From the NCBI RefSeq assembly GCF_013167455.1, contig NZ_CP038328.1: a stretch of DNA of 64,000 nucleotides. The stretch is one strand, 5' to 3'. Made by a program: the position numbers. Of the stretch, positions 1 through 3,000 are shown piece by piece; positions within the stretch are counted from its first letter, which is position 1, and each line of letters opens with the position of its first letter. Source of the stretch: Escherichia coli O157:H7 (GTDB lineage: Bacteria; Pseudomonadota; Gammaproteobacteria; Enterobacterales; Enterobacteriaceae).

Positions 1-3000
1 GGAAAAGGGATTTGTCACTATTGCTTATGACGCATCTTATCAGGGTGAAAGTGGCGGCGAGCCGCGTCAGTTAGAAAACCCATACATTCGTACTGAAGAC
101 GTCAGTGCCGTGATTGATTACCTGACAACGCTTTCTTATGTCGACAATACCCGAATTGGTGCGATGGGAATTTGTGCCGGTGCAGGATATACAGCCAATG
201 CTGCAATTCAGGATCGCCGCATCAAGGCCATCGGTACCGTTAGTGCGGTCAATATTGGTTCGATGTTCCGTAATGGTTGGGAAAACAATGTGAAATCTAT
301 TGATGCCCTGCCATACGTTGAAGCGGGTTCAAACGCCAGAACCAGCGATATTAGCAGCGGAGAATACGCCATTATGCCACTGGCACCAATGAAGGAGTCC
401 GATGCGCCGAACGAAGAACTGCGTCAGGCCTGGGAGTATTACCACACCCCTCGCGCGCAGTATCCAACAGCACCGGGTTACGCTACTTTGCGCAGCCTTA
501 ACCAGATTATTACCTATGATGCTTACCATATGGCGGAAGTGTACCTGACTCAGCCGACGCAGATTGTGGCGGGCAGCCAGGCAGGGAGCAAATGGATGAG
601 TGACGACCTGTACGATCGGGCATCAAGCCAGGATAAACGCTATCACATTGTTGAAGGCGCAAACCATATGGATCTTTATGACGGCAAAGCCTATGTGGCT
701 GAAGCAATTTCAGTATTAGCTCCGTTCTTTGAGGAAACTCTGTAATGAAACATATTCAAATCCGCAATAGTGATATGGCCTGGCATATTGCTGCCAATAT
801 TCAGTTTCCACCAAATTTTGATGAGTCAAAACAGTATCCGGCGATTATCAGCGTCCATCCTTTTGGCAGTTGTAAGGAGCAGACGTCTGGCAATATCTAT
901 GGCAAGGCATTGGCTGAAAAAGGCTATGTCGTTCTCGCTTATGACGCCAGTTTCCAGGGAGAATCTGGTGGGGAGCCTCGTTGGATAGAAGATCCGACAC
1001 AGCGCGTAGAGGATATTAGCCGTGTTATCGATTATGCAGTAACTCTGCCATATGTTGATGCTGAACGCATTGGCGTGCTGGGTGTGTGTGGGGGGGGGTG
1101 GCTATGCCATTAATGCCGCGCTGACAGAAAAACGAATTAAAGCTGTAGTGAGTATTACGGGTGTTAATATCGGGCGTCTTTTTCGGGAAGGTTTCAGCAA
1201 TTACGATCCGATTGGCGCATTGAATGCAATGGCGTCGCAACGAACCAAAGAGGCTCGTGGTGGAGAATTACAGATCAACGAATTACTTCCCGCCAGCCTG
1301 GATGCAGCAAAAGCCCATGGACTGACCGAACGCGATGTTTATGAAGCAACTGACTACTATAAAACACCACGCGGGCAACAACCGGGAGGTGCGACAAAAA
1401 TGTTGTTCTCACATGCACAGAAAACGCTGGCCTGGGATGCCTTCGCATTTACTGAAGTGTTACTGACTCAGCCGGTGATGGTAGTAGTTGGTGAAAAAGT
1501 CGGTGCCTTCGGTGCTTATCGTGATGGACTGGAAGTCTATGGCCGGGCGATGGTTTCGCAGGATCGTCAGTTAGTTTCATTACCCGATTTCTCACATTAT
1601 GAACTGTATGACAAACCGGAAGCAGTTCAGGAGGCGCTGGAAAAAGTTATTCCTTTTTTCAACACCCATCTGTGATAAGTTTCATGAGAAATATTATGAA
1701 AAATGTACTCATTCTTGGTGCTGGCGGTCAGATAGCCCGCCATGTGATTAATCAACTGGCAGATAAACAAACCATTAAACAAACTTTATTTGCTCGTCAG
1801 CCAGCAAAAATACACAAACCCTATCCAACTAATAGCCAGATTATTATGGGGGATGTACTGAATCATGCAGCACTGAAGCAGGCCATGCAGGGACAGGATA
1901 TTGTGTATGCCAACCTTACGGGGGAAGATTTAGATATTCAGGCAAATTCAGTGATCGCTGCGATGAAAGCCTGTGATGTTAAACGTCTGATCTTTGTTCT
2001 TTCCCTCGGCATTTATGATGAAGTTCCAGGAAAATTTGGCGAATGGAATAATGCAGTTATTGGTGAGCCCCTAAAACCATTCCGCAGGGCTGCGGATGCA
2101 ATTGAGGCTTCTGGACTGGAATATACAATTCTTCGCCCTGCCTGGCTGACGGATGAAGATATTATTGATTATGAGCTTACCTCACGCAATGAACCATTCA
2201 AAGGTACGATCGTATCACCTAAGAGTGTCGCAGCATTAATTACAGATATCATCGATAAACCTGAGAAACACATTGGTGAGAATATAGGCATCAATCAACC
2301 CGGGACTGATGGCGACAAGCCATTCTTCATGTAAATCAATTATATAACCACCATCGTACTGTACTATGTGCAGTACGATTTATTAAACTTATTAAGGTGA
2401 ACTGATCAATCAGATGCGATTAACATGTGTAGAACCAGTAAGAATAAAATACGCCATGTATATAACATTACGACAATTCTAATATCTGCACATCAATGAA
2501 AATACAAACAACTTCCGGCAAAAAAGTGATACAAGATCGATGACATAGCGTTGAAGAAAAGGATTTGATAATCCGCAAAATTTGCACAACACTGCCTGTA
2601 ATACTTCCTGAACCAGAGACGATCATGACCGTAACCCGCCCACGCGCCGAACGCGGCGCATTTCCGCCCGGAACAGAACATTACGGACGTTCATTATTGG
2701 GCGCGCCGTTAATCTGGTTTCCGGCCCCTGCAGCCAGTCGCGAAAGTGGTTTGATTCTGGCTGGCACTCACGGTGATGAAAACTCTTCGGTCGTCACGCT
2801 CTCCTGTGCTCTGCGGACTTTGACACCTTCTTTGCGCCGCCATCATGTGGTGCTGTGTGTGAATCCTGACGGCTGCCAGCTGGGGTTACGGGCCAATGCT
2901 AATGGTGTGGATTTAAACAGAAACTTTCCGGCGGCGAACTGGAAGGAAGGTGAAACGGTTTATCGCTGGAACAGCGCCGCTGAAGAACGTGATGTCGTAT

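What the first reader, a model, noticed from the sequence alone, without database searches (positions are those of the whole stretch)
745..1675. Tandem hydrolase paralogs with a poly-G frameshift; ancestral layout of the K-12 ymjD/ymjC pseudogene locus
Two tandem alpha/beta-hydrolase paralogs precede an intact NAD(P)-binding gene. The second paralog is broken only by one extra G in a G9 run (1090-1098) that sits in the codons for the conserved GVCGGGGY segment. In K-12 this region is, as I recall, a fused pseudogene remnant (ymjD/ymjC), so this window preserves the pre-deletion arrangement. A homopolymer of this length is also a slipped-strand hotspot, so the gene could switch on and off.
Basis: partly seen in the sequence, partly recalled or inferred. 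Interest (0 to 1): 0.4.

Follow-up and report, generated by a model that had tools for sequence, protein, structure and literature searches.

The report
Slippage-prone poly-G breaks a hydrolase gene
In this E. coli O157:H7 window, one extra G in a nine-G run disables the second of two tandem hydrolase genes; the run changes length between closely related strains, so the gene flips in and out of frame, and K-12 keeps only small deletion remnants (ymjD, ymjC) of the locus.

Summary
The window is E. coli O157:H7. G9 lies at 1090-1098, directly after the codon for the nucleophile Cys115 of a second YcjY-like alpha/beta hydrolase (745-1675). Removing one G restores a 309-aa protein that RefSeq annotates as intact in other O157:H7 strains. 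The K-12 reading also holds: MG1655 ymjD is the first 18 codons of this gene fused to its 3' end (last two sense codons), and ymjC is a truncated copy of the downstream SDR gene.

New points:
- The run is not ancestral. Most E. coli have GGGGGTGG, and one synonymous T-to-G change made a contiguous G8 in one clade.
- In 5,426 complete genomes this allele occurs as G8 (~70), G9 (~211), G10 (~73) and G11 (6). Seven near-identical O157:H7 sequences (six genomes plus this window) carry four lengths against only 11 substitutions in 40 kb.
- G9 is also in the early EDL933 reference annotation (Z2444/Z2445), so it is not a long-read artefact.
- The LysR, hydrolase, hydrolase, SDR cassette is conserved as far as Alphaproteobacteria, yet about 76% of E. 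coli have lost this hydrolase.

Most likely this is a hypermutable, reversible null allele in a dispensable gene. Adaptive phase variation is unproven. Interest is modest.

The parts
1..745 (+). 3' part of ycjY (first hydrolase paralog; its 5' end lies outside the window). Stop TAA at 743-745.
   Evidence: PDB 5XB6 is YcjY.
745..1675 (+). Second hydrolase paralog ('hyd2'; EDL933 Z2444+Z2445), a frameshifted pseudogene in this window. It is the full-length ancestor of K-12 ymjD.
   Evidence: RefSeq marks it 'frameshifted' in the identical genome NZ_CP062739.1. Repairing it gives 309 aa, identical to WP_000680617.1.
745..1113 (+). N-terminal reading frame, 122 aa, ending at the premature stop TAA 1111-1113. 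This is the exact sequence of EDL933 Z2444.
1052..1675 (+). C-terminal reading frame, 207-aa ORF, exact sequence of EDL933 Z2445. It carries the invariant His284 but has no plausible independent function.
1087..1089 (+). TGT codon of Cys115. This residue occupies the nucleophile position of the G-x-Nu-x-G elbow.
   Evidence: It aligns with the Ser of GxSxG in 8b4u, 9pjb and 8yzn. It is invariant in 13 aligned homologs, including YcjY.
1083..1089 (+). (TG)3T dinucleotide repeat directly abutting the G run. It is also length-variable: O157:H7 F3113 has one extra TG.
1090..1098 (+). G9 homopolymer, the hypermutable tract. G8 and G11 are in frame; G9 and G10 are out of frame.
800..1667 (+). Segment deleted in K-12 and in all E. 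coli that lack hyd2 (868 bp). A further 12 bp at about 1684-1695, flanked by an ATGA direct repeat, is also absent.
1696..2334 (+). Intact NmrA/NAD_binding_10-type SDR gene, the full-length form of K-12 ymjC.
1835..2499 (+). Segment deleted in K-12-type genomes (about 665 bp, with the junction in an AATA/AATGA microhomology). The deletion truncates the SDR gene after codon 46.
2625..3353 (+). mpaA (murein tripeptide amidase), the last gene of the PgrR-controlled ycjY-...-mpaA transcription unit.
   Evidence: The operon assignment comes from PMC5934670.

Best explanation
The feature is a lineage-specific, slippage-prone poly-G tract inside the active-site codons of a dispensable hydrolase gene. 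In this window it sits at an out-of-frame length, so the gene is a null allele.

Shown:
- hyd2 is the second of two YcjY-type alpha/beta hydrolases with a Cys at the nucleophile position.
- Both belong to a conserved four-gene cassette: divergent LysR regulator PgrR, ycjY, hyd2 and an NmrA-type SDR.
- Most E. coli, and all other taxa examined, encode the motif C-G-G-G-G with mixed Gly codons (TGT GGG GGT GGT GGC in E. coli).
- One synonymous GGT-to-GGG change in the clade that holds O157:H7, O55:H7 and O145:H28 fused G5 and G2 into a contiguous G8.
- The tract now varies between 8 and 11 G among near-identical genomes.
- At G9 the ribosome reads GVCGGGWLCH and stops at 1111-1113. The 122-aa product lacks the invariant His284.

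Inferred:
- The length changes arise by replication slippage.
- The G9 product is catalytically dead.
- The polymorphism is mostly non-adaptive. It is one more route, this time reversible, in the repeated erosion of this cassette in E. coli. The other routes are an 868-bp deletion in about 76% of genomes, a Q71* nonsense change in O145:H28, and an ISEc20 insertion into the same tract in O55:H7 DEC5E and S. flexneri.
- The premature stop leaves about 560 nt untranslated and may reduce expression of the downstream SDR gene and mpaA by polarity. This was not tested.
For: Tract and frames.

Origin of the tract:
- The interrupted allele GGGGGTGG occurs in SE11 and in Escherichia sp. E4742. Serratia, Klebsiella and Afipia use GGC/GGT codons.

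Census with exact 88-91-nt queries in 5,426 complete genomes, after subtracting the ~10 IS-split partial hits included in each count:
- G8 ~70, G9 ~211, G10 ~73, G11 6.
- About 790-875 genomes carry the interrupted allele, and all 36 sampled had the in-frame length.

Not a sequencing artefact:
- The exact G9 products are EDL933 Z2444 and Z2445 and a UniProt ECO57 entry.
- Accessions AAG56474.1 and AIF93451.1, which I recall belong to the 2001 and 2014 EDL933 assemblies, both carry the G9-specific 207-aa ORF.
- The in-frame G8 and G11 proteins are indexed in 1,644 and 1,092 blocks of the assembly collection. Most lie on 20-200-kb contigs typical of short-read drafts.
- 27 cattle isolates from one numbered series ('113'-'141'), with near-identical genome sizes and locus positions, are all G10.

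Hypermutability:
- Seven crown O157:H7 sequences (six genomes plus this window) carry G8, G9, G10 and G11. They differ by only 11 substitutions in 40 kb, and at least 5 independent tract events are needed.
- Three lengths occur within one sublineage marked by abgT::IS1203.
- One near-clonal pair differs in 40 kb only at the tract.
- The window and Z1615 are identical over about 21 kb except for the tract.

Dispensability:
- Only about 1,280 of 5,426 genomes keep hyd2, and 2,309 have the K-12 double deletion.
- O145:H28 carries Q71*.
- ISEc20 is inserted in the tract.

Active-site context.
Against: - Every in-frame O157 allele examined is otherwise intact, and in-frame alleles are common. Continued use of the gene, and selection on switching, therefore cannot be excluded.
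- hyd2 is 77-87% identical between E. coli and distant Proteobacteria. That argues for an important function where the gene is kept.
- Some length calls in long-read assemblies are probably errors. O145 RM9873-C1 has G8, but it also has a suspicious G5-to-G4 change in the conserved SDR gene.
- No within-culture heterogeneity, switching rate or expression data were available.
- Whether the G11 form, with a fifth Gly in an otherwise invariant motif, is active is unknown.
Confidence: 0.75

Rival explanations
1. This is an adaptive phase-variable (contingency) locus. Reversible slippage in the G tract is maintained by selection, and it creates ON and OFF subpopulations for the hydrolase. Through polarity it may also do so for the downstream SDR gene and mpaA.
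For: - Lengths 8-11 recur homoplastically in near-identical genomes.
- The rest of the ORF is intact in the O157 alleles examined.
- In-frame G8 and G11 alleles are abundant in public assemblies.
- The tract sits in an operon with a dedicated regulator.
- One k-mer feature mapped to 'putative protein YcjY' in a machine-learning study of O157:H7 clinical outcome (PMC12711010). Its exact position is unknown.
Against: - The tract arose from a single synonymous change and is absent from most E. coli and from all other taxa examined.
- The gene is deleted in about 76% of E. coli. Within the same clade it is independently killed by a nonsense mutation and by IS insertion.
- In-frame alleles make up about 21% of contiguous-tract complete genomes, not above the one-third expected from neutral drift.
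- 27 isolates from one numbered series, probably one clone, show no variation. That points to a rate well below classic contingency loci.
Confidence: 0.12
2. The extra G is a sequencing or assembly error, and the gene is really intact (G8) in the source strain.
For: - Homopolymers are error-prone in long-read assemblies.
- One O145 assembly shows a probable G-run under-call elsewhere in the locus.
Against: - About 211 complete genomes carry exactly G9.
- The exact G9 products are the annotated EDL933 proteins Z2444 and Z2445. They appear under two accessions that I recall as the 2001 and 2014 EDL933 assemblies, and in a UniProt ECO57 entry.
- RefSeq annotates the locus as frameshifted in many independent O157:H7 genomes.
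Confidence: 0.02
3. Recoding rescues the gene. Transcriptional slippage by RNA polymerase on the G9 template, or ribosomal frameshifting, yields some full-length hydrolase, so G9 would be a low-expression state rather than a null.
For: Long homopolymers can cause RNA polymerase slippage. That is established for A/T runs of 9 or more in E. coli, Shigella mxiE and IS elements (my own knowledge, not tested here).
Against: - The out-of-frame arrangement is not conserved. Orthologs and most E. coli are in frame and have no homopolymer.
- Slippage is much weaker on G/C runs than on A/T runs (my own knowledge).
- The scans found nothing notable around the tract, but a search for a frameshift-stimulating structure was not specifically run.
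Confidence: 0.05
4. The pseudogene is stable. The tract was fixed at an out-of-frame length early in the O55:H7/O157:H7 clone, and nearly all apparent length variation is technical noise.
For: - Out-of-frame lengths dominate in complete genomes.
- One numbered series of 27 cattle isolates is uniform.
Against: - Four lengths each occur in dozens to hundreds of independent assemblies, including more than 1,000 collection blocks of mostly short-read-sized contigs for each in-frame form.
- Lengths are consistent within isolate series but differ between them. Random error would not give that pattern.
Confidence: 0.05

Closest known systems
E. coli K-12 ymjD (b4673) and ymjC (b4525), between ycjY and mpaA
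   Same: - Same chromosomal locus and synteny: pgrR | ycjY | ... | mpaA | ycjG | tpx.
- ymjD keeps the first 18 codons of hyd2 and its 3' end (last two sense codons plus stop).
- ymjC keeps the first 46 codons of the SDR gene.
   Different: - K-12 has lost 868+12 bp and about 665 bp irreversibly.
- The window keeps both genes at full length.
- In the window hyd2 is broken only by a reversible 1-nt tract expansion.
YcjY (PDB 5XB6) and PA2218 (PDB 2HDW): uncharacterised alpha/beta hydrolases of the dienelactone-hydrolase-like group
   Same: - Full-length homology: E = 1e-68 to YcjY and 5e-41 to PA2218.
- The G-x-C-x-G elbow and the C-terminal S/N-H-x-[DE]-L-Y-D His motif are conserved.
   Different: - hyd2 is a distinct ortholog group, only 42% identical to YcjY but 77-87% identical to its own orthologs in distant Proteobacteria.
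- No substrate is known for any member.
Homopolymer-tract contingency loci, such as the poly-G tracts of Campylobacter jejuni, poly-G/C in Neisseria pilC/lgt and poly-C in Bordetella fim3
   Same: - An intragenic G run of 8-11 whose length decides the reading frame.
- The length differs between closely related isolates.
   Different: - Here the tract is a recent accident of one synonymous substitution and is not conserved.
- The gene is often deleted outright in the species.
- No phenotype is known, no switching rate has been measured, and no selection has been shown.
- E. coli is mismatch-repair proficient and generally poor in long repeats (the last point is my own knowledge).
UilS family quorum-quenching N-acyl-homoserine lactonase (NCBIfam NF047920)
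   Same: It is the best-scoring curated family for both hyd2 and YcjY, with an end-to-end match for hyd2 (E = 1e-21). This is consistent with a lactone or ester hydrolase chemistry.
   Different: The score is 77.6 bits against a cut-off of 400, so hyd2 is not a member. This is only a lead to function.

Membership tests
Alpha/beta hydrolase, YcjY/PA2218-like (DLH-like) group | Significant full-length sequence similarity to solved members | tested here: met
   5XB6 (YcjY) E = 1.2e-68 over residues 12-307; 2HDW E = 4.9e-41. Pfam Peptidase_S15, DLH and Abhydrolase_1 give weak hits.
Alpha/beta hydrolase, YcjY/PA2218-like (DLH-like) group | Nucleophile elbow G-x-Nu-x-G with the nucleophile at the canonical position | tested here: met
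   G113-V-C115-G-G117. Cys115 aligns with the Ser of GLSMGG and GISYGAG in 8b4u, 9pjb and 8yzn. It is invariant in 13 homologs.
Alpha/beta hydrolase, YcjY/PA2218-like (DLH-like) group | Conserved catalytic His (and acid) in the C-terminal half | tested here: inconclusive
   His284 and several Asp residues (D231, D260, D289) are invariant in the alignment. Assignment to a triad was not checked on a structure.
Alpha/beta hydrolase, YcjY/PA2218-like (DLH-like) group | Hydrolase activity on a defined substrate | not testable with these tools
   No biochemical data were found.
Frameshifted pseudogene | Intact orthologs exist and the local ORF is interrupted relative to them | tested here: met
   Intact 309-310-aa genes occur in SE11, N3, Z1615 and CB9615. 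The window ORF splits at the tract. RefSeq labels it 'frameshifted'.
Frameshifted pseudogene | The lesion is fixed and the gene shows further decay | tested here: not met
   The lesion is not fixed: G8 and G11 in-frame alleles occur in the same clone. The window allele has no second lesion.
Repeat-mediated phase-variable (contingency) locus | Simple repeat within the ORF (or promoter) whose unit number sets the ON/OFF state | tested here: met
   G8 and G11 give 309 and 310 aa. G9 and G10 give 122 and 126 aa.
Repeat-mediated phase-variable (contingency) locus | Repeat number varies among closely related isolates | tested here: met
   Four lengths occur among seven O157:H7 sequences separated by 11 substitutions in 40 kb. 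One near-clonal pair differs only at the tract. Some calls may be assembly errors.
Repeat-mediated phase-variable (contingency) locus | High reversible switching rate within a clonal culture | not testable with these tools
   This needs read-level or fluctuation data. 27 isolates from one numbered series were uniformly G10, which suggests a modest rate.
Repeat-mediated phase-variable (contingency) locus | The tract is maintained by selection across the species or related species | tested here: not met
   The tract is absent from most E. coli (GGGGGTGG), from Escherichia sp. E4742, and from Serratia, Klebsiella and Afipia.
Repeat-mediated phase-variable (contingency) locus | ON and OFF states give a selectable phenotype | not testable with these tools
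   The function of hyd2 is unknown.
Ortholog of the K-12 ymjD/ymjC remnant locus | Same synteny, with the remnants alignable to the ends of the full-length genes | tested here: met
   The ymjD and ymjC translations match the hyd2 ends and the SDR N-terminus.
Programmed frameshift or transcriptional-slippage gene | Slippery tract and out-of-frame arrangement conserved among orthologs | tested here: not met
   Orthologs are single in-frame ORFs with no homopolymer.
UilS-family AHL lactonase (NF047920) | Score above the curated cut-off | tested here: not met
   77.6 bits against a cut-off of 400.

The most novel reading that the evidence does not exclude
The (TG)3T-G(8-11) tract may be a true contingency locus in a mismatch-repair-proficient E. 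coli pathogen. Reversible slippage would toggle a Cys-nucleophile hydrolase inside the PgrR-controlled ycjY-hyd2-SDR-mpaA operon. Through transcriptional polarity it would also modulate the downstream SDR gene and the peptidoglycan-recycling amidase MpaA. The result would be heritable ON and OFF subpopulations under selection in cattle or human hosts. A secondary reading concerns ISEc20: the same tract may be a preferred docking site for this IS110-family element, because all five insertion sites examined, four of them at unrelated loci, are bracketed by G runs.
Probability: 0.1. Interest if true: 0.6.

Novelty: new member of a known kind. Interest (0 to 1): 0.33.

Why it matters
- E. coli is usually considered poor in repeat-driven ON/OFF genes. 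A coding poly-G tract that changes length roughly 10,000 times faster than an average neighbouring site in the O157:H7 clone is a useful natural marker. It is also a cautionary case for pseudogene calls, core-genome typing and k-mer association studies in this pathogen.
- The comparison explains the origin of two K-12 'orphan' genes, ymjD and ymjC.
- PgrR, ycjY, hyd2 and the SDR gene form an old cassette that appears to move between bacteria and has no obvious link to peptidoglycan recycling. This reframes what PgrR may originally have regulated.
- None of this changes a major concept. The practical value lies in annotation, in O157 population genomics, and as a starting point for finding the cassette's substrate.

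Tried and rejected
- **Sequencing error as the explanation for G9:** rejected, see the rival explanations.
- **'G12' allele:** the 92-nt alleles looked like G12. The one I read, F3113, is really an extra TG in the adjacent repeat plus G10. The other two were not read.
- **O145 RM9872 (G9) against RM9873-C1 (G8) as proof of recent switching:** down-weighted. The only other difference in 40 kb is a G5-to-G4 change in the conserved SDR gene, so an assembly under-call is likely. O145 hyd2 is dead anyway through Q71*.
- **Literature searches** for ycjY, Z2444, Z2445, ymjD, ymjC, and mononucleotide repeats with O157: nothing on this tract. One query failed on syntax.
- **Machine-learning feature in 'YcjY'** (PMC12711010): the supplements do not give its position.
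- **Promoter, terminator and repeat scans of 1-2700:** nothing notable except a hairpin at 2353-2379 after the SDR stop codon.
- **Direct repeats at the K-12 deletion junctions:** only 3-4-nt microhomologies.
- **MAFFT alignment of the window overhang:** columns beyond 41,340 are misaligned and were ignored.
- **NCBIfam:** gave only a sub-threshold lactonase lead.
- **Not run:** no structure prediction, because it would not settle any claim made here.
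Full report
**Source and layout**

- The first 2,400 bases are 100% identical to E. coli O157:H7 chromosomes such as Z1723.
- The gene order, from RefSeq annotation of that genome, is:
  - pgrR on the minus strand, just outside the window
  - ycjY, window ..745
  - a second alpha/beta hydrolase at 745-1675, marked 'frameshifted'
  - an SDR gene at 1696-2334
  - mpaA at 2625-3353
  - ycjG on the minus strand

**Checking the observation**

- Nine G occupy 1090-1098. This is the longest homopolymer in the window, and G/C runs are otherwise depleted there.
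- ORF 745-1113 stops 13 nt after the run. ORF 1052-1675 continues in another frame.
- With eight G the gene reads through as 309 aa. At the nucleotide level it is then identical to the gene annotated as intact in O157:H7 Z1615.
- YcjY and this protein ('hyd2') share 42% identity over 299 aa. Their stop and start codons overlap in TAATG.

**What the tract encodes**

- Codon 115 (TGT, 1087-1089) is a Cys. It aligns with the nucleophile Ser of G-x-S-x-G in solved alpha/beta hydrolases.
- The G run encodes the glycines that follow it.
- G-[VI]-C-G-G-G-G-Y and His284 are invariant in hyd2 orthologs from Klebsiella, Serratia, Mesorhizobium, Afipia, Paracoccus, Sphingobium, Brevundimonas and a myxobacterium.
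- The 122-aa G9 product lacks everything after the nucleophile elbow, including His284. I infer that it is inactive.

**Origin of the tract**

- In SE11 and in Escherichia sp. E4742 the sequence is TGT GGG GGT GGT GGC, that is G5-T-G2.
- Serratia, Klebsiella and Afipia use GGC and GGT codons.
- The allele of O157, O55:H7, O145:H28 and some other strains has GGT changed to GGG. This makes a contiguous G8 that is still in frame. Strain N3 and O157:H7 Z1615 are annotated as intact.
- The window's G9 is G8 plus one.

**Population census**

Exact 88-91-nt queries were run against 5,426 complete E. coli genomes. About 10 IS-split partial hits, included in each count, were subtracted.

| Tract | Genomes |
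|---|---|
| G8 | ~70 |
| G9 | ~211 |
| G10 | ~73 |
| G11 | 6, including O55:H7 CB9615 |

- Three genomes have a 92-nt allele. In F3113 this is an extra TG in the adjoining (TG)3T repeat plus G10.
- About 790-875 genomes carry the interrupted allele. All 36 sampled had the in-frame length.

**Is the variation real?**

- The exact G9 products are EDL933 Z2444 and Z2445. Two of the listed accessions belong, as I recall, to the 2001 and 2014 EDL933 assemblies.
- The in-frame G8 and G11 proteins are indexed in 1,644 and 1,092 blocks of the public assembly collection. Most are on 20-200-kb contigs typical of short-read drafts.
- The G9 and G10 truncated products each reach the 1,000-contig counting cap.
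- 27 cattle isolates from one numbered series are all G10.
- Some individual calls are doubtful. RM9873-C1 also shows a suspicious G5-to-G4 change in the SDR gene.

**Rate relative to the surroundings**

I aligned 40 kb around the tract from eight O55:H7/O157:H7 genomes, plus the window.

- O55:H7 CB9615 differs from all the O157 sequences at 12 sites.
- F3113 is basal.
- The other seven sequences (six genomes plus this window) differ by only 11 substitutions in total, yet they carry G8, G9, G10 and G11.
- TT12A (G8), PNUSAE147328 (G10) and 2024CK-1897675 (G11) share an IS1203 insertion in abgT. The last two differ in 40 kb only at the tract.
- Z1615 (G8) lacks that IS.
- The window (G9) and Z1615 are identical over about 21 kb apart from the tract.
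- At least five independent tract events are needed. That puts the tract's apparent rate about 10,000 times above the average site here (my arithmetic).

**K-12 and the ancestral layout**

- In MG1655, ymjD (66 nt) starts at the ycjY stop codon and encodes MKHIQIRNSDMDWHIAANNLG. This is hyd2 codons 1-18 joined to its 3' end (last two sense codons plus stop).
- ymjC (183 nt) is SDR codons 1-46 joined to sequence upstream of mpaA.
- The deletions cover window 800-1667 (plus 12 bp) and about 1835-2499.
- The three layouts are distributed as follows:

| Layout | Genomes |
|---|---|
| Full three-gene layout | ~1,280 (24%) |
| K-12 double deletion | 2,309 (43%) |
| hyd2 lost, SDR kept | ~1,650 (by subtraction) |

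- The long form is ancestral, for two reasons:
  - The remnant keeps both ends of hyd2.
  - The same cassette (divergent LysR regulator, hydrolase 1, hydrolase 2, NmrA-type SDR) occurs in Escherichia sp. E4742, Serratia marcescens, Klebsiella variicola (next to a resolvase gene) and the alphaproteobacterium Afipia carboxidovorans.
- Protein identity to E. coli, in gene order, is 84/93/85/80% for Serratia, 88/94/87/83% for Klebsiella and 74/80/81/67% for Afipia.
- Identities this high across classes imply horizontal spread.
- mpaA is not part of the cassette elsewhere. In Serratia and Klebsiella it is followed by more SDR genes, an old-yellow-enzyme gene and, in Serratia, a flavodoxin-like gene.

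**Interpretation**

- The window holds a null allele of hyd2, caused by a +1 expansion of a recently created and highly unstable homopolymer.
- The gene flips between in-frame and out-of-frame forms on the time scale of O157:H7 diversification.
- The species loses this gene repeatedly by other routes: deletion, Q71* in O145:H28, and ISEc20 insertion in the tract.
- The tract is not conserved, and in-frame alleles are not enriched in complete genomes (about 21%).
- I therefore favour non-adaptive, reversible decay (0.75) over a selected contingency switch (0.12).
- Sequencing error, recoding and a stable pseudogene with purely technical variation are each unlikely.

**Known versus new**

- Already annotated: the frameshift call, and ymjD and ymjC.
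- PgrR control of ycjY-ymjDC-mpaA is published (PMC5934670; Shimada et al. 2013, cited in PMC6448482).
- I found no report of the tract polymorphism.
- It is a new example of a known kind of feature, and of modest interest.

Noticed in passing
L006 1596-3044 (O55:H7 DEC5E), corresponding to window 1090-1098; also L021, L022, L023, L025 and L026-L029: ISEc20 (IS110 family, 1,449 bp) is inserted inside the hyd2 G tract in O55:H7 DEC5E (G6|IS|G6). It sits at the same left junction in S. flexneri, including strain 8401 (G6|IS|G3). Four independent ISEc20 copies at unrelated loci are also bracketed by G runs on both sides (6+6, 7-8+3, 6+5, 4+4). The element therefore seems to target poly-G, and the contiguous tract made hyd2 a target.
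   Followed up: partly
L018 (Serratia marcescens), L019 (Afipia carboxidovorans OM5), L020 (Klebsiella variicola); window 1-2334 plus pgrR upstream: The cassette pgrR-like LysR | ycjY | hyd2 | NmrA-type SDR is conserved at 67-94% protein identity across Gamma- and Alphaproteobacteria. In Klebsiella it lies next to a resolvase gene. This looks like a horizontally mobile module of unknown chemistry, with no mpaA attached outside Escherichia. hyd2 alone is 77-87% identical in Mesorhizobium, Sphingobium, Brevundimonas and a myxobacterium.
   Followed up: partly
L010/L011 19696-20626 (O145:H28 RM9872 and RM9873-C1): In O145:H28, hyd2 also carries a Q71* nonsense mutation (CAG to TAG), so the gene is dead there whatever the tract length. 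RM9873-C1 also has a G5-to-G4 change in the SDR gene, which is probably an assembly error.
   Followed up: yes
L008 5001-5933 compared with window 745-1675: hyd2 differs at only 10 of 930 nt between O157:H7 and Escherichia sp. E4742. From my own recollection E4742 is a cryptic-clade Escherichia, so this would be far less than the genome-wide divergence I would expect and would suggest recent exchange of the locus.
   Followed up: no
L004 1325-2245 (strain WP2-W18-ESBL-10): In this hyd2-deleted genome, ycjY itself is annotated as a pseudogene with an internal stop. This is further erosion of the cassette.
   Followed up: no
L012, L013 and L031 at about 9566-10779; L032 21675-22888: IS1203 insertions serve as sublineage markers near the locus. 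abgT::IS1203 is shared by TT12A, PNUSAE147328 and 2024CK-1897675. A different IS1203 copy lies between the SDR gene and mpaA in F3113. ycjN carries an internal stop in most of the O157:H7 genomes examined but not in O55:H7 CB9615.
   Followed up: partly
window 2353-2379: A 12-bp-arm hairpin (ATCGTACTGTAC/GTGCAGTACGAT) lies just after the SDR stop codon and is followed by TTATTAAA. It could be a weak terminator between the SDR gene and mpaA. The K-12 deletion removes it.
   Followed up: no
window 745-1675 and ycjY: The best curated-family hit for both hydrolases is the UilS quorum-quenching AHL lactonase family. It is far below the cut-off (78-88 bits against 400), so it is only a lead to a lactone-type substrate.
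   Followed up: no
P0046 (489 aa, a Logan contig): One public assembly encodes an apparent hyd2-SDR fusion protein, 99% identical to hyd2 with added NmrA/NAD_binding_10 domains. It is probably a read-through or indel variant of this locus.
   Followed up: no
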